A stretch of DNA of 64,000 nt, from NCBI GenBank assembly GCA_001661245.1, contig KV454018.1, forward strand, positions 743,996 to 807,995. Reading direction: 5' to 3'. A program made the position numbers and the translations under genes. Below are positions 13,405-58,499 of the stretch, one piece after another. The first letter of the stretch is position 1; each line of letters starts with the position of its first letter. The notes below the pieces were generated by a model. The model ran no database searches. It was not told the origin of the DNA and saw nothing but the letters and a program-made list of their open reading frames with translations. The stretch is from Pachysolen tannophilus NRRL Y-2460. Lineage: Eukaryota.

Positions 13405-13435
<31 letters not shown>

Positions 13436-14136
13436 TGGTGCTGGTACTGCTGCTGAAACCTTTTAGTAGTACATGGACTAGGGATAAAGAATTATTTCTT
13501 TGTGAAAAAGTGTCTAATTATATGCCAGATATCTTGACTAAATCCAAGACTCCTAAATGGAAAGATGTTTTAGATGAATTTAATGCTACTTTTAATTTGA
13601 GTAATTATAAGATTAAACAGACTAGAACAATGAGAGATAAATTTTTCAGATTGTATAACAAATTTTTAGCTGAAGATAATGGGAAGACTATTACTGATTA
13701 TAATGATATAGAATTAATATTAAATGGAATTAAATTAAAGGAATTAGAAGAAAAAAATAAATTAGAAAAACTGGATTTAATTTCAAATGAAAGGAAAAGA
13801 AAATTGGATGAATTGGAAGATAATTTAAATAATACACAACAAGTTGTTAGAAAATTACAACTGAGTTTACATAATAGAACAGCTAGTGATGATAATATAA
13901 TACAAGAAGATGAAATTGAAGATGAATCCCAAAGTGAAATAAACAATGAAGATCGTAATAATAGTAATAACAATTATTTTTCTTCAAATTATACTACAGT
14001 AGAAGTGAAATTACCAACTGAAATCAACCAATTGACAAGAAGAATAAATAGAGTTGAAAAAGATGTTGATTCTATTAAACTTCAATTAGGTAAATTAATT
14101 GCTTTACTTAATACTAATGAAAATAATGGTAATTAG
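13276..14136 (+). CDS. Uncharacterised protein with polyA/polyQ, a possible Myb/SANT-like (trihelix) DNA-binding domain and coiled coils
   Basis: 286-aa ORF; WTRDKELFL...KWKDVLDEFN...RTMRDKFFRL spacing; heptad-rich C-terminus; no orthologue recognised. Confidence 0.6.
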
Positions 14137-14455
14137 TGACTACTCATGAGAAACTAGCAATTAGCAATTAGCAACTAATACCTGGTACCTAGTAACTAGT
14201 AACTAGTAACTAAATACCTGGTACTTGATCTGAACTCGATTTGATATTTTGTCTCTTTTTTCTTTTCTTTTTCTTTTTTCTTTTTCATTTTTTTTTTCTT
14301 TTCATTTTTCTTTCTTAAATACTTTGTTTTGTCTGCCTTTGCCTTCTCTGTGAGACGCTGTGTACTTTTATTATATATTAGGTGATTTAACTAATTCAAA
14401 ATCATTTCTTTAATCTAATATCAAAGTTATTAGATTGTAGATTTAATTAATAATA

Positions 14456-14461
14456 ACGCGT
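14456..14461. promoter_or_regulatory. MCB element (ACGCGT) upstream of MSH3
   Basis: Exact ACGCGT 124 bp before the ATG, in otherwise CpG-poor DNA. Confidence 0.5.
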
Positions 14462-14584
14462 ACTTTTTTTTCACTTTAGTGAAAAAGCAAAAACAACAAT
14501 TAAAAAATAAAAATAGACAAAAAATTCAAATCAGTTCTATAAAGGTATTAATAATTATTTGAATAAATTGATTCAAGTTTGAGA

Positions 14585-17500
14585 ATGCCAGAGCAGCCAT
14601 CTATAAGTAGGTTTTTCAAGTCTAGTTCTGGCAAAGTTGATAATAATGTTAAATCAAATAAGAATGTTGAAGTTGTTGGTAATAGTAGGAAAATTTTAAG
14701 TGATTTTAAGCATACAAGTACGAGGAATGGGGATTTAAATGGAAATGGTGAAGGCCAAGCTGTTGCTATTCTGAGGAAAAGGATTTCATCTTCATTACAA
14801 GAACCAAGTGAGGATGATGATTTGGAGCTGGAAAATATGGTAACAAATGTTTCTACTAAAAAATTGAAAAAAGGTAAATCTTTGTTTGAACAATTAACAC
14901 CTTTAGAACAACAATTTATTAATTTGAAAAAAAATAATCCAGATAAGATCTTGGCGATTCAAGTTGGTTATAAATTCAAGTTTTTTGGGAAAGATGCTAT
15001 AACTGCATCACAAATATTAAATATTATGCTTATTCCTGGGAAATTCTCGGTGGATATAGATAATCAATCTCTGGAAGATTTAAATTATGATAAATATGCT
15101 TATTGTTCTATTCCTGATAATAGATTACATATTCATTTGAAAAGATTATTAAATAAAGGGTTAAAAGTTGGAATAGTTGAACAAATGGAAACAGCAGCAA
15201 TTAAGAAAATTGGTGATAATAAAAATTCATTATTTGAAAGAAAAATTACAAAGGTTTATACAAGCGCTACATATATTGATGATGAAAATGAATTAGATAA
15301 TGAATTGATGTTTAACAAATCTGGGAATTGTATTTTTTCCATTGTGGAAAATCAACAGCTGGATAGTAAATCAATTAGGATATCAATAGTGGCAGTACAA
15401 TTGATTACTGGAGAAATTATTTATGATGAATTTGATGATGATTTTGGTAGAAATGAATTAGAAACAAGGTTATTACATTTAGATCCAGTTGAATTTTTGT
15501 TAATTACAAAAAATGGAATATCAATTTCCACTGAAACAAATAAAGTCTTGAGAAATTTTAATTCATATAATAACAGGTTTAAAAAAAATTCTTCAGAATT
15601 AAGAATATTAAATAAGAATATGAAAAAGTCATATAATGAATATTTAAATGGATTAACAGATTATTTTAATAATCATAGTGAAAGCATACAGAAAACTTTT
15701 GATTTCATATTAAACAATTTGTCTCAAAATATTCAAATATGTTGTCTTGAATTGATTGAATATTTAAAAGAATTCAAATTGGATTCAATCTTTAATATGG
15801 TTTCTAATTATCAATCTTTTAATGAAATTGATAAACACATGATATTAGATTCAAACACAATTAGAAACTTGGAAATTTTCAACAATTTAACGGATGGTAA
15901 AGAGAAAGGTTCATTAATTTGGTTGTTAGACCATACTAGGACAAAATATGGTTATAGATTATTAAAAAAATGGGCTTCTAAACCTCTAATCAACAGAGAA
16001 GATATCTTGAAAAGACAATTGAGTATCGAAAACATCATTAATAATTGTAACTCAAGGTCTTTGGAAAATATAATAAAATTTCTTTCAGAATCAGTTGATT
16101 TGGAGAAAAATTTGAATAAGATTCATTATGGAAAATCTTCAAGAAAAGAAATTTATCTTTTCTTACAACAAATCATTCAAGTTTTAGAAATTTTCAATAA
16201 TAAAAATTTTAAAATTATTAAAAATGATAATTTCACTTCAGACTATTTGCTGAACTTATTCGATGATCTAAATGAAATGTCAAATAGAAGTTTAAAGTTG
16301 TTTGAAAGCTTTTTTGGTATGATCAACTCTTGGATTGCAAAAGACGATAAATTAGATCTTGAGAAAAAGAAATTGGAGTATTTCAACCAAAAGTTTTTCA
16401 ATTATGAAGTAATTCTGGAAGAACTTGAGAGTATGAGAATTTGTGGCAGGAATCTAGATGAAGAACTAGCAGAAATACGGAAAATGTTAAGACGTCCGCA
16501 ATTGCAATATATTTCAAATAATAAGGAGCATTACTTGATTGAAGTGAAAAATTCTGATATTAAGAATATACCGAAAGATTGGATTAAGTTTTCATCTACC
16601 AAATCTGTTTCAAGATTTAAATCTCCAAACATTATCAAATTAACGAACCAGCTTGAATATCACCGAGATTTATTGATAAATATAAATGACTCTTGCTTTA
16701 AACAATTTTTAAATGAAATTGATTCTCACTATGATGATTTAAATAGATTAGTGAAGATGCTTGCAACTTTTGATTGTTTGCTTTCACTATCCGCCTGTTC
16801 TTCATTGAACTTGAACTATAATAGACCAGAATTGGTGGATAAACCTTACATTGAATTATATCGAAGCAGAAATCCAATCATTGAAAATTTATCTTCCAGT
16901 TTATCCAGCTACATTCCAAACGATATTAGGATGTCATACTCAGATAACAGAATATCGATAATTACAGGACCAAATATGGGTGGTAAGTCGTCATACATTA
17001 GACAAGTTGCATTGTTAGTGATAATGACTCAAATAGGATGCTTTGTTCCATCTGACCGCGGTAGCAAGATAGGTATTTTTGATAAGATATTTATCAGGAT
17101 GGGAGCCCAGGATGATTTGATCAAAGGAGATTCGACTTTCAAAGTTGAAATGAATGAGTGTTCTTCTATTATCAAAAACTGTACAGATAGATCCTTGGTA
17201 CTTTTAGATGAGATAGGAAGAGGAACTTCTACAGTGGAAGGATTCGCAATTGCATATTCCATATTAGACTATATGATAAATGCAAAAAGTTCATTCATAC
17301 TTTTCATAACTCATTTCCAGTCTTTAAATTTTTTTGCCGAAAAGTACAAAGATGTGGTAAGAAATTTCCATATGGGTTACTCTGTTGTCGAAAACAACAT
17401 TAAGAATAATGAAGGAGAAATTAAAGATGATCTTCCTCCATTGGACATCGTATTTTTGTACTGCTTGAGTCAAGGAGTTTGTCGTAACTCGTATGGCTTA

Positions 17501-17704
17501 AACGTCGCTAAGATGGCCATGATTCCATTGGATATCATACAAAATAGTTACATCAAAGCAAAAGAGATGAAAGAAAATGTAGAAACAGTAAAGGAAAAAA
17601 ATTGGGGTTTTAAGGCTAGGCTGTTGATTGAAGACGTATTGCGCGATAGAAATCAAAATTGTCTTCTCGAATCTTTACAGAGTTTGGTTGAAAACATGGA
17701 GTAG
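14585..17704 (+). CDS. MSH3: DNA mismatch repair protein Msh3 (MutS-beta)
   Basis: ATG 14585; PIP box QPSISRFF; LTPLEQQ...QVGYKFKFFG; P-loop TGPNMGGKSSY; LLDEIGRGTST; FITHF. Confidence 0.96.
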   Translation: MPEQPSISRFFKSSSGKVDNNVKSNKNVEVVGNSRKILSDFKHTSTRNGDLNGNGEGQAVAILRKRISSSLQEPSEDDDLELENMVTNVSTKKLKKGKSLFEQLTPLEQQFINLKKNNPDKILAIQVGYKFKFFGKDAITASQILNIMLIPGKFSVDIDNQSLEDLNYDKYAYCSIPDNRLHIHLKRLLNKGLKVGIVEQMETAAIKKIGDNKNSLFERKITKVYTSATYIDDENELDNELMFNKSGNCIFSIVENQQLDSKSIRISIVAVQLITGEIIYDEFDDDFGRNELETRLLHLDPVEFLLITKNGISISTETNKVLRNFNSYNNRFKKNSSELRILNKNMKKSYNEYLNGLTDYFNNHSESIQKTFDFILNNLSQNIQICCLELIEYLKEFKLDSIFNMVSNYQSFNEIDKHMILDSNTIRNLEIFNNLTDGKEKGSLIWLLDHTRTKYGYRLLKKWASKPLINREDILKRQLSIENIINNCNSRSLENIIKFLSESVDLEKNLNKIHYGKSSRKEIYLFLQQIIQVLEIFNNKNFKIIKNDNFTSDYLLNLFDDLNEMSNRSLKLFESFFGMINSWIAKDDKLDLEKKKLEYFNQKFFNYEVILEELESMRICGRNLDEELAEIRKMLRRPQLQYISNNKEHYLIEVKNSDIKNIPKDWIKFSSTKSVSRFKSPNIIKLTNQLEYHRDLLININDSCFKQFLNEIDSHYDDLNRLVKMLATFDCLLSLSACSSLNLNYNRPELVDKPYIELYRSRNPIIENLSSSLSSYIPNDIRMSYSDNRISIITGPNMGGKSSYIRQVALLVIMTQIGCFVPSDRGSKIGIFDKIFIRMGAQDDLIKGDSTFKVEMNECSSIIKNCTDRSLVLLDEIGRGTSTVEGFAIAYSILDYMINAKSSFILFITHFQSLNFFAEKYKDVVRNFHMGYSVVENNIKNNEGEIKDDLPPLDIVFLYCLSQGVCRNSYGLNVAKMAMIPLDIIQNSYIKAKEMKENVETVKEKNWGFKARLLIEDVLRDRNQNCLLESLQSLVENME

Positions 17705-17997
17705 TTTATAACGTTAATCTATTTTATTTACTTGCATTGAAAACTAATCTAAAATTTTAGCATTAGTTAGTACCTTTAATTTTTTCTTTTAAACTTCTTT
17801 CTTGAAATCAAGATAATAAGTATATGTACGACATGTATCAATATAGACAAAATATAGACAATTGTAATAATAAACAATCAATATGCATTCATATTGAGAT
17901 GGATAAAATTTTATAAAACTTATAATATGAAATTGCAAAAACAAAAAACGGCTTTGCTTAATTTTTTAATTTTTTTTCTATTTTTCTTATTTTTTTA

Positions 17998-20900
17998 TCA
18001 ACGTTTCAAAAACTTTCCACCACTAGAATAATAATGATGCTTCGAACGGTTCAGACTATTAACAGAATAAGAAATATTTCCTAATGACATTTCAATCTCC
18101 TCCGGATTCCCATCATATATCATTTGATCATCATCTTCAAAATCATCCGAATCGTGATGTAATGTAATAGAATTAAATTTCTCAAAAGGATCAACATCCT
18201 TATTTTCTAATTTTTCTTTCTCTGGTTCTGAATCTTCTTGCTGCGGAGTTTTCTGTTTCTGTAGCTTTGTATTCTTCTTGACATTATCAAAAGATAAGTT
18301 GAAACTATCACAGTCTTCTTCATTACTATTAGAAGTTTTGGCGACTTTTGTTTTCTTATTTTTGGTGAATACAGGAACCATTGGTGGTTTTTGATTTCTC
18401 AATAACGCCCACTGAACGTTTTTGAAAAAAATATGCTGTTTTATATCATTAGCCCCATTTTTGGACCCCAATCTGTTTGTTTCATCCTTTATCAATAGTT
18501 TTTTAATCAAATTTTTACAACTAGATGAAATTTTAACTTCTGGATTACCACTACTGCTACCGTTGCTACCGCTACTACCATTATTGCTAAAAGCAACTTC
18601 TTTCTTCAATATATTAGCAAACGTCTGATTTCTTGTTGAACCTTTGAAGGGTGTCGTTCCATATAACATCTCGTAGATAAAAATACCCAAAGTCCACCAA
18701 TCTACCGCACTGGTATGCCCTTTTCCTCTAATAACTTCTGGAGCAATATATTCTTCAGTTCCAACAAAAGAATTTGTTCTAAATCCATCAATGCATGCCT
18801 TCGTATCGACTCCTGTTGGAATATTGCTATTGCTACTATTGCTCGAATAACTACTTGAGTTATGTCCATTTAGTACAACTCCTGGTCTACCAATATTATC
18901 AGATCTTTTGGATAAATCAAAATCGGAAAGCATAACATGACCAGATGCATGCAACAATATATTTTCAGGTTTTAAATCCCTGTATATAAAACCCATCATA
19001 TGCAAGTATTCTAAAGCAGCAGTGACCTCCGATGCATAAAACTTTGCGTCATTTTCCGAGATACACTTGGATTTTCTAGTTTGTAATGCTCTAAAAAATT
19101 CACCACCCATACAATATTCCATACAGAGAAATAAATAATCATTAGATTGGAAAGAATGATATAGAGTGACAATAAATGGATGATTTGAAGTTGCTAAAAT
19201 TTCTTGTTCCAGTAATGCTCTTTTAATTTTATTTCTTTCAATCATTTCTTTTTTGTTTAAGACTTTCATTGCATACAATTTTTTAGTCAGCTTTTCTCTA
19301 ACAAGGTATACTTTTCCAACATCACCTCTTCCCAATAATTTTATTCTTTCAAAACATGATGCGTTAACTTCAACATCGGAAATTCTCACAGAATTTGACG
19401 AATAAGTTCTACCACCAACAGATTTGTTACGTGGTCTTGATGTCACTTTTAACTCTCCTATATGCTTTGCCAAATCCATATCAGCAGTTGCTGGTAAATG
19501 TGAACTATGTGATAAGTATTGGGGATACAGTGGTTCTTGTTCCAACTCAAGTTTAGAATCTTGTTCACCAATCACTTTTAAACCTAATGGAGCTGATGCA
19601 ACTCTTCTCAATCTCTTTTGTATATTTGATGGAACAAATGATGAATTTTCATTTTGATTTAAATCCTGTTTTCTGTCTTCAGCTGTTGCAACACCATTTT
19701 CATGTTGATCTCTTTCTTCATCTGGTCTGATAATATTTATTGATAAAGTTGAATTATTTACACTGTAATCATGTTTCAACTTCATAGAATATTCCTGGTC
19801 TATAATATCACATTCATTTTCGGTATTCATCATTACCGTACCATTATTACCATGACTAGAACTTCTTATATGATGAGCATTTGAATTTTGATTATTATTT
19901 GCTTCTTCTAAATGAGGTGGTAAACCTTGATGCTGGAAGTATGGATTTGAATTTACCACCGACGATTTATTGGGTTGATTATTATTTATATGATTATGAT
20001 TACTGCCATTAATAGTGATAGATGGTGAACTATAGGAAGTACCTTGATCTTTAGTGAACATAACTTGGGATTTATTTGGTGCGACTGTTGTTGGAGTTGT
20101 TGTTCCTGCAGAAGCTGTATGAGTTGATGAAGATGACGATGAGTTTTCCAATCTTTTAGGGTTTGAAGAGGATCTTTTACGACGGATGAATTTCATTAAC
20201 GAAGACGAAGATTGATGTTCCGACGTTGATAATTGTTGTGGAGACCGAAGAGGAGGCGCATGCAGTTGCAGAGGCATTTGTACCTGTTGTGGCAAGGACA
20301 TCAGTTCATCGTTGGTGACCTCTGTTGTAATTTCTTGAGGTATATCCAAAATTTCATTTAATACACTGCTAGTTATATCGTTATCCCCCGGGTCATTATT
20401 TGATTCTGTAAATTCATTTCTAAATTTATGACCATTTTCTTGATTCAAAGTTGCATCATCATCTTCTTCATGATCAGTATAACCACTATCATTCCCATAA
20501 TTAGTATTATTACTACTTCCAAATTTGAATAAACTTTTAATCTTGGTGAATCTTAATTTTGAAGAAGTATTATTAGGACTTGAAGGATATCCATATTCTT
20601 CTTCCAGGTCCAATTCTTCATCTACTGCTTCATACGGCCCTATATTGTTATGAGTACTTTCTGCATTTACAACCTGTTCCTCGTATTGTTGAGCTTGTTC
20701 CTGTTGACTTTGTTCATGTTGACTTTGTTCCTGTTGGCGTTCCAGCCGCTCTTGTTGTGTTTTAACATTATTAATTTCATGTTCAACTTCGGCACTACCT
20801 TTTGGGCTAAAATAATCACTTCCATCAAGGTTATCATTATGACCACCATCACTTAAACGTTGAGATGTTGAAGAAAAATTTCCACTATTGCTGAAATGGC

Positions 20901-34583: not shown

Positions 34584-36296
34584 ATGTCAACTCAGGTTTC
34601 AGCTACCGCGGGTTCATCAACAACAACAACTACAACTGCAACAACAACAACAGCCAGTCCGACTACCGCCGCCACCTCCTCGGGCGCTGCTACTGCAGTA
34701 GGTGAGAGCGCCGGAGCGGGCGCGGGTGTAGGAGTAGGAGCGGCCGTAGGAACGGGCCTGGGCGTCGGAGCGGGCACTGCGAATATTGGTGTTGGAGTGG
34801 GCTCGGGAGTGGGCTCGGGAGTGGGAGTGGGCGTGGGCGGTACAGATAACAGAGCGGGATCTTTTACTTATCCGGAAATTCCAAGGACTTCTTTCACTTC
34901 AGAGCTAAATATTTTTAATAATGCAAATCTTTCTAAAGCAAGTGGACTTGGTAAGAAGAAATCAAGTACTGCCTCAAGAAAGAAAAAATTAGTTTCACCT
35001 TCTGGAAAATTTGAAATATCGCCTTTGTCGGACGAAAATGAAATGGCTATAATTGATGATGATGAAGAAGAAGAAGAAGAAGAAGATCAAGATCAAGAAG
35101 ATTACAAACATTCTCATAGTTTATCCAAAGCTCATCATCATGATCATCTTAATGACATCCATCAACATAATACAGTGTTATCGACTCAGTCCCCAGAAGG
35201 GATTGCTGCTGCTTCTCAAATTACTCCTAATAGGTTAGCGAATATATTGTTGAACAATGGTCCGTTACCAATTAGGCATATTACAAAACATTTATCATCA
35301 CAAATTCCAGATTTTGCCTTACTTTCGTTATCAAAGCAAAGGCGGTTAATAATGTCTGCTTTAGAAATGGGAGATGAAGAGACTGGATGTGTTTTTGAAA
35401 AAGTTGGATGGGGTCAATGGTCTGCAAAGAAAGCAGATAAGGCAGATATAGATTTTAGAAATAAAAGAGCAAGATCAAAATCAACAGGACCAGAAGAAAC
35501 AAGTGTATCACCTTCAAATAGAACAACATCATTTATGAAAAATGCTGCTAGAAGAGTTTCAATTACAAACCCTTTAACTGATCCACATAACGTTAAAGTC
35601 CCATTCAATCCTAGTTTTAATTCATCACATATCCCAAGATCTTTACATCAAGCTATTGCCTCATCATCATCTTCTGAGGATGAAAAAGACCTGGACGGTC
35701 ATGAAGAAGAAAATGATCTTGAAGATGACGATGATGACGATTTAGAAGATGATGACGAAGTTTTCAAATTTGAGAATGATGATTCAACGCAAATGCCAAA
35801 ATTTTCTTCAAGAGTCGTTATTCCACCACCTTCGGGTCTATCAGGACGTTCTGTAACCCCTCGTCGTGGAAGCATGAACAACAGTAATAATGGTAATAAT
35901 AATAACAGCAATAACAATAGTAATAATAGTAATAGTAATAATAATGGCAACAATAACAATTATAATGGAGGTATAAGAAAACCAAGACAACAAAGATCAA
36001 GATTGAACTCATTAGATTACATAGAAGCAACTTTAGATGGTAACAGTATTCAAGGAGGTTTAGATGCTTCCGTATTACCAGACAATTTAGTTATTAGAAG
36101 AAAACCAAGATCTTCATTTTCAGAATCTTACTTGAGGTCAACTCCAACTCCTTCGTTAAGAGTTTCTTCAAACGAAAATGTCTCATCAATGAAATTTGAA
36201 GATAATGATAATGACACTGATGAAGAAAATTGGAAGTCAATAGGCGCTGCAAAATTATCAGCTGCCTACACATTAATGGATTTGAGATCTATTTAA
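34584..36296 (+). CDS. STB3: RRPE-binding Sin3-associated factor Stb3
   Basis: ITPNRLANILLNNGPLPIRHITKHL, LSLSKQRRLIMSALE, FEKVGWGQW; C-terminal DTDEENWKSIGA and AAYTLMDL. Confidence 0.88.
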   Translation: MSTQVSATAGSSTTTTTTATTTTASPTTAATSSGAATAVGESAGAGAGVGVGAAVGTGLGVGAGTANIGVGVGSGVGSGVGVGVGGTDNRAGSFTYPEIPRTSFTSELNIFNNANLSKASGLGKKKSSTASRKKKLVSPSGKFEISPLSDENEMAIIDDDEEEEEEEDQDQEDYKHSHSLSKAHHHDHLNDIHQHNTVLSTQSPEGIAAASQITPNRLANILLNNGPLPIRHITKHLSSQIPDFALLSLSKQRRLIMSALEMGDEETGCVFEKVGWGQWSAKKADKADIDFRNKRARSKSTGPEETSVSPSNRTTSFMKNAARRVSITNPLTDPHNVKVPFNPSFNSSHIPRSLHQAIASSSSSEDEKDLDGHEEENDLEDDDDDDLEDDDEVFKFENDDSTQMPKFSSRVVIPPPSGLSGRSVTPRRGSMNNSNNGNNNNSNNNSNNSNSNNNGNNNNYNGGIRKPRQQRSRLNSLDYIEATLDGNSIQGGLDASVLPDNLVIRRKPRSSFSESYLRSTPTPSLRVSSNENVSSMKFEDNDNDTDEENWKSIGAAKLSAAYTLMDLRSI

Positions 36297-36951: not shown

Positions 36952-36983
<32 letters not shown>

Positions 36984-37166
36984 GAGGACAAAGATATCTC
37001 CAGATATACGTAAAAATATGCCTTTTAAAAATTTTTTATTCTTGCTTGAATGGAGAGGATATGTTAAACAAATAGACAACGACAACATAGTGATATTATT
37101 TTTTTTTTTTAGTTATCGTTTTATTTTTTTAAATTTTTTTTTCCAAAAATTTTGTTTTTTTTTCAA

Positions 37167-42300: not shown

Positions 42301-45210
42301 TAAAAAGTCTCTAGGTAAATCTTGACCATCATCAATACCGCTGTTGTTTTTAATAAAGTCATCGACTGTCATTCGGTTTTTCACCTGAGGTGAATGTTGA
42401 TCAGTATTCAACATAACCACAGAATATGCCAAGACATAAGCAGTATCTGCATTTGCAAAAGAATCTGGATTTCCATCAACATATCTTTCTGCGAATTTTA
42501 ACATAAATCTATCAATTTTCTGGGCTTCTCCAGGTAATCTAAAGCTCTGTAGAAAAATTCTCATTGCATCAACAAATGGCATATTGTTAAATTCCATCTG
42601 ATCAATAAATGCATGCATAATTGCAATATTTTTTTCATCTCCTTCACCGAGATATTCACCAATAACTGCCTTATCCAAACCAATTTCACTATTTAATAAA
42701 AACCTGGCAATATCTTTTGGCGAGTCACTCAGAATAAAACCGTCTTTAATCAATTTTGCAACTCCTCTTTTCGGTGAATAATTAAACTGACGAACACCTT
42801 CCAATAAAGCTGTCTTACGCTGTTTCGAGGTTTCAAAAAGTGCTGGATCATCAACTTCTGTAGTGCTTTGACTATTAGAAATGTCATGGTAAGAAGAAGA
42901 AGAACTAAATGAAGGTGAATCCGGAACCAGAGGTGATGTGATAGCGGATCCATTGGTATCTGACCTACTTCTCAGAGGAACAGATAAAGAACTTGAAGAT
43001 TGATTTGCTAACGGTGCTGCTGTACTCTGCGACTTCTCAGTCCACGATGATAAAGATTTTAAAAATGCAACAAGGCAATCAATCGATGTCATTTTCAAGG
43101 CATATTCAATTGGAAAATTCAATGCACTATCAGGATTCGGTACATGTGATCCAAGTTTGCTAATGGATAATAATGGCAAACTTGATAAGCTGTAAGTTGC
43201 TAAAGGTTTGGTTAAATTTTCACGATAATGAACTTTTTGGGTAGCAGTAACTTCAACCCTTGTTAAAGATAATTTAGTCAAGTAGTCAATCAATGATTCA
43301 GAAATATTTGGCATGGAAGAATCACAATCGTAATTCAAATAAAATTCAATGACAGCTTTTGGATCATTACAAAGCTTCTGGATAATTGATAATAAATATC
43401 TCTTTTGATGAGATGTTGAAGTTTTCATTTCAGAAACAGGGAAATATATTTCTACAAGGAAAACAGGAATTTCCCTTTTGAATTCTGATCTTAAATTTGA
43501 AATCATTATCCAAAAGATTTCTAAAGATATTTCATAAACTGGAGCCAAAGACGAAGCAGCATTTCTTGAAAGTGTTAAACATAAATACTGTCTTACAGCA
43601 TCAATCAATCTTGTTTCTTCACTAGTAGTAGTACTTGTAATAACAACATCCTTTCTAACAAAGCAAACCAAATGCTCTTTCAAAATGTTATAAATTATAT
43701 GCAATGACAATAATTTCGATCTGATAGGATGTGATCTCAAATCTAATGATTCATTTTCCAAAGGTTTGATGGACAATTTACACATTGCCCTAAATATCAA
43801 GAATGCATCTTTAACAACAACCACTTCTTCTTCACCCAAACCTTGATTTGCTTCTTCAACTCTTTCTTCATCATCAGCATTTTCAAAATTATCCAAAGTC
43901 AAAGGTCCCGCCACAGTAGTATTTGTGTTTGTCATATTTTGTGAATCTAAATGTTGAGGAGAAGTATTACTTCTTGAGACAATGGATTGTTTTTTCATAT
44001 GTTCATCTAAAGGTTTTTTATTTATTCTTTCAAAAACTTCATTAACAATTTGAGTCAAAGAAGCTTGTGCAATTCCTTGGTTGACGGAGGACAATGATAA
44101 AATGAAAATATTATAAATTTGTCTTACAGCTCTTAATAATGTTCCACCATGAGCTGGAATTGCTTCATTTAATACACCAGCCATTAATCCTCTAATAACT
44201 TGTAATTCTATTCTTTCTTCGGTACCTTCACCTTCAAAACAGTCTGCAATAGTTTCAATGGCACCATCGATTAAACTTGAAGAAGGCACTGGGTCTGCAA
44301 TGTTATCGGTTAAATTACAGAGTTTGACTTCTGCAAGTTCATCAAATATATTGAATGTAAATGCTTTACTAAAACATTCCAAAGCTTCAAGTTTAATTTC
44401 TACTGTACGTGCTTGACAAGCTAATCTCAATGGTTCAAAGATGAAATTTGGTTCTGGCATTTCACCAGCAGCCAATTTTTCAATGGCTTTGTTACAAGCT
44501 TGGGATAATCTTGGTAATTTCTTGGCTTCTTTATATTTCAAAATCGATTCAAATGCAACTTTTAAGAAACCAGCAGATGCATGGCCATTAACAGACAAGG
44601 GTGGCTGTGACAAGGTGGAATTCGATGCTCTAGGTTGTAGTGATTGTGATTGTGATTCCCGAGGCGGTTGATCCTGCTGAGAAGTACTTGGAGCTGAAGC
44701 AGACGCAGAAGCAGAAGCAGAAGCAGACACGGACGCAGACAGGGACTGTTCTTTTTGCAGGTCATCAAGTGGCCCCACGCTCTCAGCACCGTCATTGGTA
44801 ACTTTTGGTTGATTATCCACATTTTCTTCTTCATCTTTAGCGCTATCTTCACCGGATGGAGTTTCCTGCTCCTTCCCATTTGAAATGGCTTCCTCTTCAT
44901 GTTTCCCACCATTGAGTTTTCCTGTATCATTTTTTGATGTTTCTGCTTCTCCGTTCAGCAACGACAAACTTGTATTTGAATCTATTTCTTTACCAACTTG
45001 GACTTCTTCCAGGGCTTCTGGCTGGGCTTCTGGCTGGCCGCCAGCCAGTGCGGTCCCATCTTCTGCCCCATCTTCCGCCGCTGCCTTTCTTTCTTCAACC
45101 GACTTCTTAACATCAACATCAGTTACAATAGATCCATTCTCGCGTAAATCTTCCTTGGGGAACTCATTAGAGGCCCCTTTACTCTCTGATTGATTCACTA
45201 CTTCACCCAT
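39304..45210 (-). CDS. SEC7: Arf GEF Sec7
   Basis: DCB/HUS regions (YLNYDCD), Sec7 domain FRLPGEAQKIDRFMLKFAERY and AYSVVMLNTDQH, HDS domains, LPNLLKQES. Confidence 0.97.
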   Translation of the reverse strand: MGEVVNQSESKGASNEFPKEDLRENGSIVTDVDVKKSVEERKAAAEDGAEDGTALAGGQPEAQPEALEEVQVGKEIDSNTSLSLLNGEAETSKNDTGKLNGGKHEEEAISNGKEQETPSGEDSAKDEEENVDNQPKVTNDGAESVGPLDDLQKEQSLSASVSASASASASASAPSTSQQDQPPRESQSQSLQPRASNSTLSQPPLSVNGHASAGFLKVAFESILKYKEAKKLPRLSQACNKAIEKLAAGEMPEPNFIFEPLRLACQARTVEIKLEALECFSKAFTFNIFDELAEVKLCNLTDNIADPVPSSSLIDGAIETIADCFEGEGTEERIELQVIRGLMAGVLNEAIPAHGGTLLRAVRQIYNIFILSLSSVNQGIAQASLTQIVNEVFERINKKPLDEHMKKQSIVSRSNTSPQHLDSQNMTNTNTTVAGPLTLDNFENADDEERVEEANQGLGEEEVVVVKDAFLIFRAMCKLSIKPLENESLDLRSHPIRSKLLSLHIIYNILKEHLVCFVRKDVVITSTTTSEETRLIDAVRQYLCLTLSRNAASSLAPVYEISLEIFWIMISNLRSEFKREIPVFLVEIYFPVSEMKTSTSHQKRYLLSIIQKLCNDPKAVIEFYLNYDCDSSMPNISESLIDYLTKLSLTRVEVTATQKVHYRENLTKPLATYSLSSLPLLSISKLGSHVPNPDSALNFPIEYALKMTSIDCLVAFLKSLSSWTEKSQSTAAPLANQSSSSLSVPLRSRSDTNGSAITSPLVPDSPSFSSSSSYHDISNSQSTTEVDDPALFETSKQRKTALLEGVRQFNYSPKRGVAKLIKDGFILSDSPKDIARFLLNSEIGLDKAVIGEYLGEGDEKNIAIMHAFIDQMEFNNMPFVDAMRIFLQSFRLPGEAQKIDRFMLKFAERYVDGNPDSFANADTAYVLAYSVVMLNTDQHSPQVKNRMTVDDFIKNNSGIDDGQDLPRDFLVKTYDEIRKNEIKLQSEQHAALIAGEGAVSQSTGFFGSKDVSREAYMHASREMSIKTEQLVKTLGKLSRSGESSKVVFYSASPHSEHVKSIFDTLWMSILAGLTPPFKEYEDEDTNKICLQGIKLSIHIACMFDLDYARTSFIGALVQFANLNNLEEMKPKNITAIYTLLEIAILEGNTLKEAWKEIILSISQIERLQLLAQGVDSGAIPDVAIARLANRSSMDSSKTHSTTHSGNFFISIATSLSSKKQTPSQLAFEHFQNQQLNPEVLPMITSTDLEVAVDKVFTASSNLAGDAIIDFVKALSEVSCEEIDSSGQSESPRMFALQKMVDVCYYNMDRIRVQWSALWSVMGETFNQFGCHSNKVIVFFALDSLRQLSMRFFEIEELSHFKFQKEFLKPFEYIITNNIATDVKERVLESLGYMIQVKADKIRSGWTTMFGAFNVAAKDSNETIVAKVTNIASKINKEHFIKVYSQGAFVELVTCFTELAKNQKFQKSSLFALSTLKKLIQKVSKLSFGTDEERQVMLDNGDDKDLLVKLWFPILFGYHDVIMTGEDLEVRSEALNFMFDSLVQYGGHFEPDFWFKVCNQLLFPIFGVLSRRWEINQFNSNDDMSVWLSTTLIQALRNMIALFTHYFDTLNNMLDGYLNLLVSCICQENDTIARIGRSCLQQLITQNLSKFDQHHWDKISDAFAQLFDLTTAKELFKADPLNHDATVSSVNNKNDSNSNNKNNNNGNNNGGGSGSGTRSSNQLEDSINGESSLDVSFNIVSNTNGSSSTVNIKSLKEEQRLQKSKEKSAIVIKSVLQLLMIETLSELFEDDHFYEVIPFKNLISLANLLEKSYKFSREFNDDYNLRVRLWNAGIIERLPNLLKQESSSSAVYISIMFRLYCDPDKVSAEEKEHISSILIPMCVTIIERFVVLDEVQQQRNITTWRPVVVEILQGYIELDEQDFIKNCPTMYDLVLLIFDKSAPVELRSAMKLFFTRVGTVYINDGKSTN

Positions 45211-53645: not shown

Positions 53646-56525
53646 TTATAAACACAAAACTTCTTGTATGAATTTATCATTTTTAACATCATTGACGTAT
53701 TTCTCATTAACTAGTTTTTTCAAAAGTTCTACTGCATCCTGGATTTTGGTATTATCGTTCAAAGCATTTTCATCGACATTTTCTTTCCATTCCTTCAAGA
53801 TTTTTTTCAAAATTGCATTTCCAGCTAAGATTTCCTCTTCAGAACACTTTGATTTCTTTTCTCTTACATATGGATCATCATTGTTATATTCCTCCAACTC
53901 TGTAGCTTTTCTTTTAGCCATGGATATAATTTTTTGAGGAAAATTGACAATCTCAGCAACGTGAACACCAAAAGATTGATCTGAGATACCTGGCTCCACT
54001 TTATACAATAATGTAATATCTTCTGATGTACCTTTATCATCTTCTATATGAGCTACAACATGCAAATTGTCTACTGTCTTGACAATATCAGCTAAATTTG
54101 TCAATTCATGGAAATGTGTTGCAAACAAAGTAAAGCATTTGATCTTAGTTGAAATGTGCTCACTTATAGACCATGCTAACCCAAATCCATCATATGTAGA
54201 AGTACCTCTACCCAATTCATCAACTATAATAAGAGAGTTTTTAGTGGCAGCTCTTAAAATTGAAGACATTTCCAACATCTCTGTCATAAAAGTAGACACA
54301 CCTTTTAATTGAGAATCAGATGCCCCTACTCTTGCCAATATTGAGTCGAATATACATAATTCTGCTTCGGTACAAGGAACAAAACAACCAATCTGCGCCA
54401 TTAATGCGATTACTCCGATTTGTCTAATATACGTAGATTTACCACCCATATTTGGTCCAGTAATAATAGAAAATTCCTTTTCATTCGAAATTAATGTTAC
54501 ATCGTTTGCAATAAAAGTGATATCATCTTGACTTTCTAAGCATGGGTGTCTAGAATCTTTTAATACACACTTTCTAGTTGAATCGTCAATTCCACCAGAA
54601 ATTTTTGGTTTGACGTATGGAATTGGTGCGTAGGATGAAACATGGGCAAATGAGACCAAGACATCTAATATGGAAAGTTTTATAGAAAGTTTAATGAAAA
54701 GGGAACTATAAGTAGAAGCAATAGAGACTATTTCCTTGATTAAACCATTGGAAAGTTTCTCATATTCTTCCTGCAACGAAGCGACTTTTTCTGATAATTC
54801 TTTCAATTTTGATGTTGTGAAGAAAACACCAGATTTAACTGTTTGCAATTCTTTATAATTCTTATCTCCTCTAATGACAGAAGAATCAGTCCTGGTTAAC
54901 CTAAAACACCAACCATGAATATGATGATTTTCTAATTTTAATTTTTTATCCATTTCCATTTGTAAATCTTCAGCTGCCCATCTATGACATTTTTTAATTT
55001 CATCTTTGACTTTGACTAATCGTTCATTGATCAGCATTAAATTTTCATCGAATTCTGGGTTTACAGTGACTAAATTGTTAGAATTCAATTGAGAAGCGGA
55101 AGTTGCTTCATCTAATGCTTTCAAATCAATTGTAGATTCGACTAACTCCTGGAATTTGTTTAATTTTACTGAATAATCAAAAATTGGATCAACCCATAAC
55201 TCTTTCATAAATTCTTTTAAATTAACTTCATCAGTTGCATCCTCTTCATCCATCATATCATTTAAAGATTGAGTGAGAAGTTCTAATAAATCTGGTAACT
55301 TGACACATAATTGATAACATCTGATCACATCATTCAAACTAGATGATGCTGATTTAGGGTTACTCAATTTTTTAACTAATTTAACAATATCAGGCACTTG
55401 ATTTAAAAAATTATTTTGTAAAGAAGTACGTAAATTGGAGTCATTCACTAAAAGTTCAACTACTCTCAATCTTTTGTTAATTTCTAATTTATCGACCAAT
55501 GGTTGTTTCAACCATTGAGAGAGTAATCTTGTACCACCAATAGTCTTACAATGATTCAACAAGCCGAATAAACTTGAGTTTTTATTCATTGGATTAGCAT
55601 TTATATGGGCTTGTGGAAAAAGATTCAATGCTCTAACTGCAGAATAATCCAATTTCATAAACTGTTCTAATTTATAATCAATTAAAGACCAATTACCAGA
55701 ACTTTGATCATCGTTAATCAAATTCAAGTAATTAATTAATGAGTTACAACAGGCCTGTGCTAAGAATAATGATGAAATACTATTTGTAGACAATACTAAG
55801 TCATCACCAGTTAGCCTTCTTAGATCCTGTTCTATATTTTTATTATTAAACTCTGAAGGTTTCATTGTTGAAATAACAATATTACAGCGGTCAATAACTT
55901 GTGTTAATTTCACAAAATCTAAATCTTTTTGCTGTTGATCACCTGAAGATGGAATAATACATTCATTGACACCTAATTGAATCAACATTGATTCTAGATT
56001 TGAAAATAACTCATTATCAATAAATTCGGATAACCCAATAATCTTATTATTGGTATCAACAAAACACAATCCAAATTTCTTACCACCTTCCAGATTACTA
56101 TTAACCAATTTAACTGAAGCAATTATTGGCAGAGAGTTCAAATCATTACTATTGATCATATCTTCAATTTGATTCAAGTTCCCTGGAGATGCCAATTTCA
56201 ACAATTTCCAATTTTTATCATAAATTTCCAACTTATGACCCATTTCTAAAATAGCAATCTTTAACAAGTTGGAAAAAACCGATGGTGATATAGTGACATA
56301 CTTGATCTTATGATTATTATAATTATGATATTTGATAACCGAATTTGTCTTATATATGATTTCAGCAACAAGTTGGGCGTCATCATCTAACACGATGTAG
56401 TAATCAACTTTATCAACAACTCTTATAGTCTTTTCATCCTTTTCTGAGAGCCTTAAAAAGCTCTTATAAAAACTCGACTCATCAGAACTATCACTGAACT
56501 TCAACTCTGGCCTGATACTAGACAT
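53646..56525 (-). CDS. MSH2: DNA mismatch repair protein Msh2
   Basis: MSSIRPELKF start, ASPGNL, TGPNMGGKSTYIRQ, DSQLKGVSTFM, DELGRGTSTYDGFGLAW, FATHFHELT. Confidence 0.97.
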   Translation of the reverse strand: MSSIRPELKFSDSSDESSFYKSFLRLSEKDEKTIRVVDKVDYYIVLDDDAQLVAEIIYKTNSVIKYHNYNNHKIKYVTISPSVFSNLLKIAILEMGHKLEIYDKNWKLLKLASPGNLNQIEDMINSNDLNSLPIIASVKLVNSNLEGGKKFGLCFVDTNNKIIGLSEFIDNELFSNLESMLIQLGVNECIIPSSGDQQQKDLDFVKLTQVIDRCNIVISTMKPSEFNNKNIEQDLRRLTGDDLVLSTNSISSLFLAQACCNSLINYLNLINDDQSSGNWSLIDYKLEQFMKLDYSAVRALNLFPQAHINANPMNKNSSLFGLLNHCKTIGGTRLLSQWLKQPLVDKLEINKRLRVVELLVNDSNLRTSLQNNFLNQVPDIVKLVKKLSNPKSASSSLNDVIRCYQLCVKLPDLLELLTQSLNDMMDEEDATDEVNLKEFMKELWVDPIFDYSVKLNKFQELVESTIDLKALDEATSASQLNSNNLVTVNPEFDENLMLINERLVKVKDEIKKCHRWAAEDLQMEMDKKLKLENHHIHGWCFRLTRTDSSVIRGDKNYKELQTVKSGVFFTTSKLKELSEKVASLQEEYEKLSNGLIKEIVSIASTYSSLFIKLSIKLSILDVLVSFAHVSSYAPIPYVKPKISGGIDDSTRKCVLKDSRHPCLESQDDITFIANDVTLISNEKEFSIITGPNMGGKSTYIRQIGVIALMAQIGCFVPCTEAELCIFDSILARVGASDSQLKGVSTFMTEMLEMSSILRAATKNSLIIVDELGRGTSTYDGFGLAWSISEHISTKIKCFTLFATHFHELTNLADIVKTVDNLHVVAHIEDDKGTSEDITLLYKVEPGISDQSFGVHVAEIVNFPQKIISMAKRKATELEEYNNDDPYVREKKSKCSEEEILAGNAILKKILKEWKENVDENALNDNTKIQDAVELLKKLVNEKYVNDVKNDKFIQEVLCL

Positions 56526-56655
56526 TCTTCTATCAATAAGCTATGAATCAAAGACGTCAAAACAAGAACAAAGAAGTTATAAAAAATAAATTCAATGAGA
56601 GTACAATTATTGAAAATTATTAATAAAAAAAATAATACCTTTAAAAGTACATGAG

Positions 56656-56661
56656 ACGCGT
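56656..56661. promoter_or_regulatory. MCB element (ACGCGT) upstream of MSH2
   Basis: Exact ACGCGT about 130 bp before the MSH2 ATG. Confidence 0.55.
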
Positions 56662-57011
56662 TTTTTTTTTTTTTATTATTATTTATTTATTTATTTATCT
56701 CTTTTTGACCGATAAGCTTACACCGATTTACAGGGAAAAGACACCATATTTAAAATAACACATTATATAGATAATCAATAACATTGTGATAATAAAAGAA
56801 GAATAAAAAGGAATAAAAAAATATAAAAAAAAATCAAGAAAAGAAAAAAAAAATAGGCGAAGGACTCAGGTAGCTATATAGCCAGCTGTATAACCAACTG
56901 AATGTTGCGAAACAAAAAGATATAAAAGGAGTTGAAATTTTTCAACAAAATCTAAAGAAAAAGAAGATGATGATTTTCTTTTCGTTTTAATTCTTATGTT
57001 TTGTAATTCTA

Positions 57012-58499
57012 TTAATTCATATCCTTATGAACTTGAACTTGTTCATCTGTGTTTGAATCAGTGATGTTACCCCAGAAAGGACTTAAATCTTGACCTGCAC
57101 CGTTAAAGATCAACAAGTTTGGAGTATCCTCTGGGACACTAGCCAAGGTATCTTTTGTAGCAAAAGCCAACACTTGTTTTTTCAATTGCAGTGGTGTAAC
57201 AACACCACCGGAAGCGAAAAATTCTGAATCTGAATCTGGATGTAAAGATAAGAAATATGTTAATAAGCCAACAATGTGTGGAGAAGCCATTGAAGTACCA
57301 GACATTGATGTTGTTGCTTCAGGGTAACCGATATAAGTTGATAAGATGTTTAAACCTGGAGCAAAGACATCAACACATTTACCGTAATTTGAAAAATATG
57401 CTCTATAGTCGTAAACACTTGAAGCACCTACTGTGATAGCTAATTCTGCACTTGCTGGAGAAGAATAACAAGCATCATCATTTTCATTACCGGCAGCAAC
57501 ACCGAAATGAATTCCAGCTTTAACTGCAGCATTAACGGCCATATCTAAGGCAGGGGAATTACCACCACCCAAGGACATGTTTGCAGTTGAACCTTTAAAA
57601 CCTTTTTTACCTTCTTTAACAGCCTTTGTGTGAGCATTTGCAACAAATTCAACGCCTTTTATAACATCAGACATGGAACCAGAACCATCTGAACTTAAAA
57701 CTTTAACGGCAACAACTTCGGCATTTTTAGCAATACCATAATCTTTAGACAGAATAGTACCTGCACAATGAGTTCCATGACCATGATCATCTTTATCCTG
57801 ATTACCAGCTGGGATTGTTTTACCCCATTTAGCTCTTCCTTCAAATTGGTTATGTTCAATATAGATACCTGTATCGATAACATAAGCGGTAACACCTTTG
57901 CCACCTTCATCATCATAAAGATAATCATAAGTATCAGCATAATCTAAACTTTTCCTTGATGAAATTCTAGCTAATCCCCAAGGAGAATCTTTTTCAATAG
58001 CGAATTCATTAGCATAAACTTTTGAATCTTTTTCAACAAAGGCAATTAAAGGATCATGACGAATAAATTCTAAAGTTTGAGGTAAAAAAATTCCTGAATA
58101 ACCATGAACCAAATCACCAATTTTAAATTCTTTTAATAAATCTCCAGAGCCTTTAACTTGCAGAATAAATTCATTACCAGGATCTTTTTTTTCTAAAATA
58201 TCAATTTCTATTAATTGTCTTTCCAATACTTGATTTTTATGGAAACGTAATCTTTCTTGATCCAACGTTTTTTTGAAAACAACAATATAAGAATTTGGAA
58301 TAATCTCTCTACCTTTTAATTCAGATGAATAAATAGGAGCAACTTTATCAATTTTATTAAATTTATTAAAAAAAAACTTATGGGCGCTATCCTTGTTTAT
58401 TAACAAATCAGTATCATCATTCCTATAAAGGGTAGGAATAGTTAAAGAATACGATAAAACAGTAAAACTGAAAATAAAAAAAACAAAACTCAATTTCAT
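57012..58499 (-). CDS. PRB1: Subtilisin-like serine protease, vacuolar protease B family
   Basis: Signal peptide, I9 propeptide (PNSYIVVF), YVIDTG, HGHGTHCAGTI, ANMSLGG, SGTSMASPH; could be a paralogue rather than the orthologue. Confidence 0.85.
   Translation of the reverse strand: MKLSFVFFIFSFTVLSYSLTIPTLYRNDDTDLLINKDSAHKFFFNKFNKIDKVAPIYSSELKGREIIPNSYIVVFKKTLDQERLRFHKNQVLERQLIEIDILEKKDPGNEFILQVKGSGDLLKEFKIGDLVHGYSGIFLPQTLEFIRHDPLIAFVEKDSKVYANEFAIEKDSPWGLARISSRKSLDYADTYDYLYDDEGGKGVTAYVIDTGIYIEHNQFEGRAKWGKTIPAGNQDKDDHGHGTHCAGTILSKDYGIAKNAEVVAVKVLSSDGSGSMSDVIKGVEFVANAHTKAVKEGKKGFKGSTANMSLGGGNSPALDMAVNAAVKAGIHFGVAAGNENDDACYSSPASAELAITVGASSVYDYRAYFSNYGKCVDVFAPGLNILSTYIGYPEATTSMSGTSMASPHIVGLLTYFLSLHPDSDSEFFASGGVVTPLQLKKQVLAFATKDTLASVPEDTPNLLIFNGAGQDLSPFWGNITDSNTDEQVQVHKDMN

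What the first reader, a model, noticed from the sequence alone, without database searches (positions are those of the whole stretch)
13435..57752. CTG appears to encode alanine (CUG-Ala code), so the ORF track mistranslates it
Seen in sequence: kinase K-I-K-R-A-L-CTG-E-Q-E (19210-19212, minus), recalled as KRALAEQE in Nrc-2-type kinases. Protease H-C-A-G-T-I-CTG-S-K (57750-57752), recalled as GTIASK in Prb1. Msh2 N-S-CTG-P-I-I (56130-56132). CTG also sits in Ala-rich low-complexity runs: Sec7 S-CTG-S-A-S-V-S-A-S-A (44740-44742), Stb3 G-T-G-CTG-G-V-G-A-G (34758-34760), and polyQ-CTG-V-CTG-V-CTG-CTG-CTG (13435-13455), which reads AVAVAAA. Established: CUG=Ala is known in Pachysolen tannophilus and relatives (NCBI table 26), distinct from the CUG-Ser clades. 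Inference: the genome belongs to that clade. Some CTG sites (Sen54 NA-CTG-IAAIVD, Faa2 GII-CTG-RF) are ambiguous. No tRNA(CAG) is in this window.
Basis: partly seen in the sequence, partly recalled or inferred. Interest (0 to 1): 0.75.

Follow-up and report, generated by a model that had tools for sequence, protein, structure and literature searches.

The report
Known CUG-alanine code of Pachysolen

Summary

The interpretation, CTG = Ala (NCBI table 26), is supported:
- The public protein records for four of the window's genes differ from the table-11 translation at all 23 CTG codons and nowhere else. Each has Ala there.
- Exact table-26 translations of two more ORFs are in the public collection; their table-11 forms are not.
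- A paralogue on a contig of identical length (947,628 bp) is named Pachysolen tannophilus NRRL Y-2460.

My own Codetta-style tally on four orthologue sets recovers the standard residue for 59 of 61 sense codons.
- For CTG it gives Ala: log-odds +6.4, against Thr -2.5, Ser -5.3 and Leu -13.0, over 11 well-aligned sites.
- No CTG occurs among 181 Leu-box codons in Leu-majority columns, where 11.9 were expected.
- The Ala signal rests largely on two sites, and a few CTGs sit at Leu-like positions.

Mass spectrometry and a tRNA-Ala(CAG) are published for this species (PMC4937558). The tRNA gene is not in the window and no whole genome was held.

Verdict: correct, already known, low interest.

The parts
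19210..19212 (-). CTG codon, aa 781 of the Fpk1/nrc-2-type AGC kinase (ORF 17998-21552)
   Evidence: 114 of 119 homologues have Ala, 3 Val, 1 Leu, 1 Thr. The single Leu is in the closest non-self relative, P0393. The public record has A.
19288..19290 (-). CTG codon, aa 755 of the same kinase, inside the kinase domain
   Evidence: A variable column: K 30, A 25, S 12, V 10, R 9, L 9 of 119. Log-odds A +1.20, S -0.03, L -0.61.
57750..57752 (-). CTG codon, aa 250 of the Prb1-like subtilase (ORF 57012-58499), next to the catalytic-His motif HCAGTI
   Evidence: A 65 and G 54 of 119 homologues, with no Leu and no Ser. The public record has A.
58161..58163 (-). CTG codon, aa 113 of the subtilase
   Evidence: A 38, T 15, S 11-12, V 10, Q 9 of 115-119 homologues; L 4-5.
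57189..57191 (-). CTG codon, aa 437 of the subtilase
   Evidence: A 42, T 20, E 16, S 11, L 1 of 119.
56130..56132 (-). CTG codon, aa 132 of Msh2 (ORF 53646-56525)
   Evidence: A 44, S 28, N 17, T 12, V 8 of 119. With sequence weights A is 0.24 and S 0.27, so this site does not separate Ala from Ser.
13435..13455 (+). Five CTG codons (aa 54, 56, 58, 59, 60) after a polyQ run in ORF 13276-14136. They read AVAVAAA under table 26.
   Evidence: One search gives the coordinates. The exact table-26 translation of this ORF is in the public collection and the table-11 one is not.
44740..44742 (-). CTG codon, aa 157 of Sec7 (ORF 39304-45210), at the head of a Ser-Ala dipeptide repeat
   Evidence: Under table 26 the stretch reads QSASASVSASASASASASAPS, so Ala continues the alternation. 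There is no orthologue test at this low-complexity site.
34758..34760 (+). CTG codon, aa 59 of Stb3 (ORF 34584-36296), in a Gly-X repeat
   Evidence: Searches show GTG[A]GVGAG. This is consistent with Ala but not discriminating.
8809..8811 (+). CTG codon, aa 1102 of the flocculin-like ORF 5506-9123, in the column after CPL(T/S)
   Evidence: The other 9 repeat units carry Ala in 6 (GCC, GCA x5) and Ser in 3.
8386..8388 (+). CTG codon, aa 961 of the flocculin-like ORF. This is a counter-example: it sits at a Leu-like position.
   Evidence: In the column STA_x_VS, 7 of the other 9 repeat units have Leu (TTG, TTA, CTA codons), 1 has Phe and 1 has Gln. It is one base away from TTG or CTA.
59367..59369 (-). 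CTG codon, aa 399 of Sen54 (ORF 59235-60563). Ambiguous site.
   Evidence: It aligns with Leu of human TSEN54 in a weak local match of 1.8-2.9 bits. The exact table-26 translation of this ORF is the public record.
42730..42732 (-). CTG codon, aa 827 of Sec7, at the start of the Sec7 domain. Variable site.
   Evidence: The five best solved homologues carry P, K, L, L, L. I read this by eye from the alignments printed.
4995..5070 (-). tRNA-Asn(GTT), the only tRNA gene in the window
   Evidence: It shows that the decoding tRNA(CAG) is not in this window.

Best explanation
The window is nuclear DNA of Pachysolen tannophilus (order Alaninales), a budding yeast that reads CUG as alanine (NCBI table 26).

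Mechanism, as published for this species and not testable in this window: a tRNA derived from tRNA-Ala by an anticodon change to CAG keeps the alanine identity elements (the G3:U70 pair and A73). Alanyl-tRNA synthetase does not read the anticodon, so it charges this tRNA with Ala. The ancestral tRNA-Leu(CAG) had been lost.

Consequence for this window: any translation by table 1 or table 11 puts Leu where the protein has Ala. That affects 101 codons in the 24 long ORFs, of which 97 lie outside one doubtful ORF.

Most present-day CTG codons lie at weakly conserved, hydrophilic positions. The few at conserved positions are at Ala columns.
For: Shown here:
1. The public records for the window's own subtilase, Msh2, Msh3/6-like protein and kinase differ from the table-11 translation at 23 of 23 CTG codons and at no other aligned residue. 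Each has A there.
2. In an exact look-up, the table-26 translations of 2 of 5 further ORFs (Sen54 and the polyQ ORF) are in NCBI/UniRef on a contig of 947,628 bp. The table-11 translations were found for 0 of 5.
3. A 63%-identical paralogue, P0004, on a contig of the same length is named Pachysolen tannophilus NRRL Y-2460. The nearest named relatives are Kuraishia, Candida boidinii, Ogataea and Komagataella.
4. In the column tally on 119+119+149+119 homologues, 59 of 61 sense codons return their standard residue. CTG returns Ala at +6.4, against Thr -2.5, Ser -5.3 and Leu -13.0, over 11 sites with at least 70% occupancy. In the control, 11-site samples of true Ala, Leu and Ser codons return A in 2000/2000, L in 2000/2000 and S in 1981/2000.
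5. In a bootstrap over sites, Ala is best in 4243 of 5000, Leu in 0 and Ser in 1.
6. There are 0 CTG among 181 Leu-box codons in columns where at least 50% of homologues have Leu. The expectation was 11.9, P = 4.7e-6. There are 2 CTG in Ala-majority columns and 0 in 114 Ser-majority columns.
7. As a positive control for the Ser alternative, many homologues, probably CUG-Ser yeasts translated with the standard code, show Leu at conserved Ser columns, up to 7 in P0476. The query shows 0 of 61 such columns and 1 of 73 conserved Ala columns.

From the literature (passages read):
- LC-MS/MS of P. tannophilus NRRL Y-2460 found Ala at 97.2% of 907 fully supported CUG positions.
- The tRNA(CAG) carries G3:U70 and A73 (PMC4937558).
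- The Ala clade comprises Pachysolen, Nakazawaea and Peterozyma (PMC5951914).
- NCBI taxonomy places the species in the order Alaninales.
Against: The in-window statistical signal for Ala over other small or polar residues is modest.
- It rests largely on two sites. Without kinase aa 781 and subtilase aa 250, Ala scores 1.9 against Gln 1.8 and Thr 1.2. Without the subtilase gene, Ala scores 1.3 against Arg 0.0.
- If all 22 CTG sites with at least 5 aligned homologues are used, Thr (0.3) and Ala (0.1) tie.
- CTG is under-represented at Ala-majority columns. It makes up 2 of 82 Ala-type codons there, against 23 of 178 overall.

Some CTGs sit at Leu-like positions.
- Flocculin aa 961: 7 of 9 paralogous repeat units have Leu.
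- Msh3-like aa 63: Leu in 23 of 123 homologues and Ala in none.
- Sen54 aa 399: Leu in human TSEN54.
- Sec7 aa 827: Leu in 3 of 5 solved homologues.

At the 8 further CTG sites where I could read at least one aligned residue from solved-structure alignments, no homologue has Ala.

The decoding tRNA could not be examined. It is not in the window and no genome is held.
Confidence: 0.96

Rival explanations
1. CTG is read as serine, as in the Candida (table 12) or the Ascoidea/Saccharomycopsis clades.
For: Several CTG sites lie in Ser/Thr/Ala-rich low-complexity runs where Ser would fit as well. With sequence weights, Msh2 aa 132 is Ser 0.27 against Ala 0.24. At flocculin aa 1102, 3 of 9 paralogous units have Ser.
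Against: Summed log-odds are -5.3 for Ser against +6.4 for Ala. Ser was best in 1 of 5000 bootstraps. There are 0 CTG in 114 Ser-majority columns, while homologues that appear to come from CUG-Ser yeasts do show Leu there. The two conserved CTG columns have no Ser at all: 0 of 119 each. The public records carry Ala.
Confidence: 0.01
2. CTG is ordinary leucine (standard code). The hydrophilic contexts would reflect only a rare codon that happens to lie in poorly conserved regions.
For: A few CTGs are at Leu-like positions: flocculin aa 961, Msh3-like aa 63, Sen54 aa 399 and Sec7 aa 827.
Against: Log-odds are -13.0 over 11 sites, and -9.2 even without the two strongest Ala sites. There are 0 CTG among 181 Leu-box codons at Leu-majority columns against 11.9 expected, while CTA, CTC and CTT all appear there. 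Leu was never best in 5000 bootstraps. Kinase aa 781 is Ala in 114 of 119 homologues.
Confidence: 0.01
3. CTG is decoded ambiguously, as Ala plus a substantial share of Leu or Ser, in the way Ascoidea asiatica decodes CUG stochastically.
For: The CTG sites are a mix of Ala-like and Leu-like positions. Sequence alone cannot exclude this.
Against: The published proteomics for this species found Ala at 97.2% of 907 supported positions. Only 8 positions were ambiguous and 18 non-Ala, which the authors attribute to strain differences or errors (PMC4937558). CTG is absent from conserved Leu and Ser columns.
Confidence: 0.02

Closest known systems
Pachysolen tannophilus nuclear code (NCBI translation table 26; the CUG-Ala clade, order Alaninales: Pachysolen, Nakazawaea, Peterozyma)
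   Same: Same organism as far as can be told and the same reassignment. CTG aligns with Ala, is absent from conserved Leu and Ser columns, and is already translated as Ala in the deposited proteins.
   Different: Nothing differs. The tRNA-Ala(CAG) and the peptide evidence were not re-examined here. The name of table 26 is recalled; the tools only showed that code 26 reads CTG as A.
CUG-Ser1 clade (Candida albicans and relatives, table 12) and CUG-Ser2 clade (Ascoidea, Saccharomycopsis)
   Same: The same codon is taken away from Leu in budding yeasts. CTG is depleted from conserved Leu positions and re-appears at new positions.
   Different: There the new meaning is Ser, through a tRNA-Ser(CAG). 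In this window there are 0 CTG in 114 Ser-majority columns, and Ser scores -5.3.
Standard-code Pichiaceae (Leu2 clade: Kuraishia, Ogataea, Komagataella, Candida boidinii)
   Same: These are the closest named relatives by protein identity, about 57-65%.
   Different: They read CUG as Leu (PMC5951914). Opposite the window's CTG codons their proteins carry varied residues, and Ala at the conserved kinase site.

Membership tests
CUG-Ala code (table 26, Pachysolen clade) | CTG codons align with Ala in orthologues from standard-code species | tested here: met
   Ala is the best residue at +6.4, with the next best at -2.5, over 11 well-aligned sites. Bootstrap support is 4243 of 5000. The support is moderate and leans on 2 conserved sites.
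CUG-Ala code (table 26, Pachysolen clade) | CTG is avoided at conserved Leu positions | tested here: met
   0 of 181 Leu-box codons in Leu-majority columns are CTG, against 11.9 expected (P = 4.7e-6).
CUG-Ala code (table 26, Pachysolen clade) | A tRNA with anticodon CAG that carries the Ala identity elements (G3:U70, A73, no long variable arm) | not testable with these tools
   The only tRNA in the window is tRNA-Asn and no whole genome is held. It is published for the species (PMC4937558).
CUG-Ala code (table 26, Pachysolen clade) | No tRNA-Leu(CAG) in the genome | not testable with these tools
   No genome is held.
CUG-Ala code (table 26, Pachysolen clade) | Peptides with Ala at CUG positions | not testable with these tools
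   Published: 97.2% of 907 supported positions (PMC4937558). It was not checked whether this window's sites are among them.
CUG-Ala code (table 26, Pachysolen clade) | The organism belongs to Pachysolen or the Alaninales | tested here: met
   The window's own proteins and a paralogue named Pachysolen tannophilus NRRL Y-2460 lie on a contig of 947,628 bp. The deposited proteins have A at CTG.
CUG-Ser code (table 12) | CTG codons align with conserved Ser | tested here: not met
   0 CTG in 114 Ser-majority columns. Ser log-odds are -5.3.
Standard code | CTG is used like the other Leu codons at conserved Leu | tested here: not met
   Leu log-odds are -13.0.

The most novel reading that the evidence does not exclude
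A minority of CTG codons sit at positions that are Leu in paralogues or orthologues: flocculin aa 961, Msh3-like aa 63, Sen54 aa 399 and Sec7 aa 827. These might be decoded partly as Leu in a site- or context-dependent way. That would be a residue of the old meaning, rather than plain recent Leu-to-Ala substitutions by single TTG/CTA-to-CTG changes.
Probability: 0.02. Interest if true: 0.55.

Novelty: already known. Interest (0 to 1): 0.08.

Why it matters
For the scan, this is a practical point rather than a discovery. Every window from this genome, and from other Alaninales, must be translated with table 26. Otherwise about 6.5 codons per 1000 are misread as Leu.

The side observation may be more useful. 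Large protein collections seem to contain proteins of CUG-Ser and probably CUG-Ala yeasts translated with the standard code. This puts false Leu into conserved Ser or Ala columns.

Tried and rejected
- The whole genome was asked for, in order to find the tRNA(CAG). None is held.
- Earlier notes on this genome were looked up. There are none.
- Solved-structure alignments were used to add CTG sites: Sec7 domain, aldo-keto reductase, Sla1 SH3, acyl-protein thioesterase, Ipk2, Faa2 and Sen54.
  - They covered 8 sites with 1 to 5 distant homologues each, all at variable positions, with no Ala. They therefore add no discrimination.
  - I read these alignments by eye.
  - Two searches returned nothing because I had set the E-value limit too strict. 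I repeated them with the default limit.
- Including poorly aligned CTG sites (occupancy below 30%) in the tally washes out the Ala signal, leaving Thr at 0.3 and Ala at 0.1. I report the tally for well-aligned sites and say so.
- The 'reverse' count at conserved columns rejects Leu, but it also shows that CTG is rarer at conserved Ala than GCN codons are. By itself it therefore proves depletion from conserved sites rather than Ala.
- Exact look-up of Stb3, Sec7 and Faa2 found neither translation. The public gene models presumably differ in extent.
- A search for the genome paper of strain NRRL Y-2460 found only papers that cite it. That paper is therefore recalled, not read.
- I did not use sequencing-run searches, because the species was already clear and sample or study identity is not needed.
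Full report
**What is in the window.** The window is AT-rich, with 24-37% G+C in 4-kb windows. It is densely packed with typical budding-yeast genes.
- a flocculin-like wall protein (5506-9123 +);
- a Zn(2)Cys(6) factor (10090-12798 +);
- an Msh3/6-like MutS homologue (14585-17704 +);
- an AGC kinase of the Fpk1/nrc-2 type (17998-21552 -);
- Stb3 (34584-36296 +);
- Sec7 (39304-45210 -);
- Sla1 (45837-49394 +);
- an aldo-keto reductase (49836-50777 -);
- an acyl-CoA synthetase (51382-53517 +);
- Msh2 (53646-56525 -);
- a Prb1-like subtilase (57012-58499 -);
- Sen54 (59235-60563 -).

The 24 ORFs of at least 150 aa hold 15,468 codons, of which 101 are CTG.

**Check of the observation.** The only tRNA gene is tRNA-Asn(GTT) at 4995-5070 (-). 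ARAGORN finds it with and without intron search, and so does Rfam.

**Whose DNA it is, and what the public record says.** The protein searches returned the window's own gene products as database entries, each on one contig of 947,628 bp.

For the subtilase, Msh2, the Msh3/6-like protein and the kinase, these entries differ from the table-11 translation at 3, 3, 7 and 10 residues. That is exactly the 23 CTG codons and nothing else in the aligned extent, and each has Ala there.

I also ran an exact look-up of five further ORFs in both codes. The table-26 translations of Sen54 and of the polyQ ORF 13276-14136 were found in NCBI/UniRef. No table-11 translation was found. Stb3, Sec7 and Faa2 were found in neither form, presumably because the deposited gene models differ in extent.

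A 63%-identical paralogue of the subtilase, on a contig of the same length, is named 'PACTADRAFT_52071 [Pachysolen tannophilus NRRL Y-2460]'. The nearest named relatives of the other genes are Kuraishia capsulata, Candida boidinii, C. arabinofermentans, Ogataea and Komagataella, at 57-65% identity. This fits the position of Pachysolen next to the standard-code Pichiaceae (PMC5951914). NCBI taxonomy places the species in an order named Alaninales.

So the window comes from the species in which CUG = Ala was discovered, and the deposited annotation already applies it.

**Independent test from the sequence.** I did not want to rest on the annotation alone. I aligned four window proteins with their homologues after removing the self entries:
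- subtilase, 119 homologues;
- Msh2, 119;
- Msh3/6-like protein, 149 representatives at 50% clustering;
- kinase, 119.

For every codon of the query I summed the log-odds of each amino acid in the sequence-weighted column profile. This is a Codetta-like tally.

For 59 of 61 sense codons the best residue is the standard one. The two exceptions are CGA, with 3 sites and four residues nearly tied, and CTG.

Over the 11 CTG sites with at least 70% column occupancy the scores are Ala +6.4, Thr -2.5, Gln -2.8, Ser -5.3 and Leu -13.0. Further checks:
- Samples of 11 true Ala, Leu or Ser codons from the same alignments return A in 2000/2000, L in 2000/2000 and S in 1981/2000.
- A bootstrap over the 11 CTG sites gives Ala in 4243 of 5000, Arg 287, Asn 219, Thr 110, Gln 109, Lys 26, Gly 3, Ile 2, Ser 1 and Leu 0.
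- Random 11-site sets of any codon reach 'Ala best with at least 6.4' in 1 of 5000.

**Reverse count.** In columns where at least 50% of homologues have Leu, the query uses 181 Leu-box codons. None of them is CTG, although CTG is 6.6% of Leu-box codons in these genes, which gives 11.9 expected and P = 4.7e-6. CTT (12), CTA (10) and CTC (4) do occur there.

Two CTGs lie in Ala-majority columns: kinase aa 781, with Ala in 114 of 119 homologues, and subtilase aa 250, with Ala 65 and Gly 54. No CTG lies in the 114 Ser-majority columns.

**Limits of the in-window evidence.** The rejection of Leu is robust. It stays at -9.2 even without the two best Ala sites. The preference for Ala over other small or polar residues is moderate:
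- without those two sites, Ala scores 1.9, Gln 1.8 and Thr 1.2;
- without the subtilase gene, Ala scores 1.3 and Arg 0.0;
- with all 22 sites that have at least 5 aligned homologues, Thr (0.3) and Ala (0.1) tie.

Most CTG codons sit in variable, hydrophilic stretches. At Ala-majority columns CTG is rarer than its overall share: 2 of 82 Ala-type codons against 23 of 178.

Some CTGs are at Leu-like positions:
- In the flocculin-like protein, the unit with CTG at aa 961 (8386-8388) aligns with Leu in 7 of the 9 other repeat units. By contrast, the CTG at aa 1102 aligns with Ala in 6 and Ser in 3.
- Msh3-like aa 63 has Leu in 23 of 123 homologues and no Ala.
- Sen54 aa 399 aligns with Leu of human TSEN54 in a weak match.
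- Sec7 aa 827 aligns with P, K, L, L, L in solved homologues.

The other sites I could read from solved-structure alignments are:
- aldo-keto reductase aa 132: Lys;
- aldo-keto reductase aa 138: Ser, Asn or Lys;
- Sla1 aa 51: Thr;
- thioesterase aa 156: Gly;
- Ipk2 aa 103: Ile;
- Faa2 aa 626: Thr;
- Sen54 aa 396: Asp.

None of these shows Ala. They are all variable and decide nothing (read by eye).

Under CUG = Ala, such Leu-like sites are simply Leu-to-Ala replacements reached by one base change from TTG or CTA. That reading is inference.

**A control that separates Ser from Ala.** Many homologues in the database carry Leu at columns where at least 80% of sequences have Ser. This holds for 14 kinase homologues, with up to 7 such columns in P0476, and for 15 Msh2 homologues. 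This is what CUG-Ser yeasts look like when translated with the standard code.

The query, translated with table 11, has 0 Leu in 61 conserved Ser columns and 1 in 73 conserved Ala columns.

The closest non-self relatives come from unnamed assemblies and are about 63-67% identical. They carry the only Leu at kinase aa 781 (P0393) and at Msh2 aa 132 (P0122). P0393 has Leu at 2 conserved Ala columns, and P0002 has Leu opposite 2 of 38 of our GCN-Ala codons, against a mean of 0.5% in other homologues. This suggests a second Ala-clade species translated with the standard code. I could not see their DNA.

**Mechanism.** What follows is taken from the literature (passages read), not shown here.
- LC-MS/MS of strain NRRL Y-2460 found Ala at 97.2% of 907 fully supported CUG positions. 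Eight positions were ambiguous and 18 non-Ala, which the authors attribute to strain differences, errors or spurious mischarging.
- The authors propose loss of tRNA-Leu(CAG), followed by capture of the codon by a tRNA whose synthetase ignores the anticodon (PMC4937558).
- A later study defines the Ala clade as Pachysolen, Nakazawaea and Peterozyma, and counts three independent CUG reassignments in budding yeasts (PMC5951914).
- The genome paper of strain NRRL Y-2460 is not in the searchable library; one search found only papers citing it. I cite it from recall only.

**Verdict.** Its interpretation is correct at about 0.96 confidence.

The finding is already known. It is the type organism of NCBI table 26, and the deposited proteins of this very scaffold already carry Ala at CTG.

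The interest for discovery is low. The practical lesson is to translate this genome with table 26. A second lesson is to be aware that proteins of CUG-reassigning yeasts in large collections are often translated with the standard code.

Noticed in passing
window 5506-9123 (+): A flocculin-like wall protein with 10 repeat units ending in (C/F)PL, holding 14 CTG codons. In one unit CTG (8386-8388) replaces the Leu found in 7 of the 9 other units. In another unit CTG (8809-8811) sits where 6 units have Ala and 3 have Ser.
   Followed up: partly
proteins P0393, P0122, P0002, P0476 and others: Database homologues from unnamed assemblies carry Leu at conserved Ser columns, up to 7 in one kinase. The window's closest relatives carry Leu at conserved Ala columns. 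They are probably CUG-Ser and CUG-Ala yeasts translated with the standard code, that is, mistranslated entries in the protein collection.
   Followed up: partly
window 22454-22759 and 31768-32004: Two runs of N, 306 and 237 bases. They lie inside two of the stretches without a long ORF.
   Followed up: no
window 58691-59320 (-): A 209-aa ORF that overlaps the 3' end of Sen54 by 86 bases. It has no Pfam match and its Leu-box codon use is unlike the other ORFs (CTC 5, CTA 4, CTG 4, CTT 6, TTA 3, TTG 4). It is probably not a gene, so 4 of the 101 CTG codons counted may not be coding.
   Followed up: no
window 53646-56525 (-): The public Msh2 record (898 aa) covers only residues 27-924 of the 959-aa open frame. 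It is shorter at both ends although the frame stays open.
   Followed up: partly
window 34584-36296 (+), 39304-45210 (-), 51382-53517 (+): The full-ORF translations of Stb3, Sec7 and the acyl-CoA synthetase are not in the public collection under table 26 or table 11. The deposited gene models must differ in start, end or introns.
   Followed up: no
window 936-4730 (+), 24427-25698 (-), 36982-37485 (+): Long ORFs of 1264, 423 and 167 aa without any Pfam match at E <= 1e-5. They were not examined further.
   Followed up: no
window 14585-17704 (+) and 53646-56525 (-): Two MutS homologues lie 36 kb apart in the same window: an Msh3/6-like protein with all five MutS domains, and Msh2.
   Followed up: no
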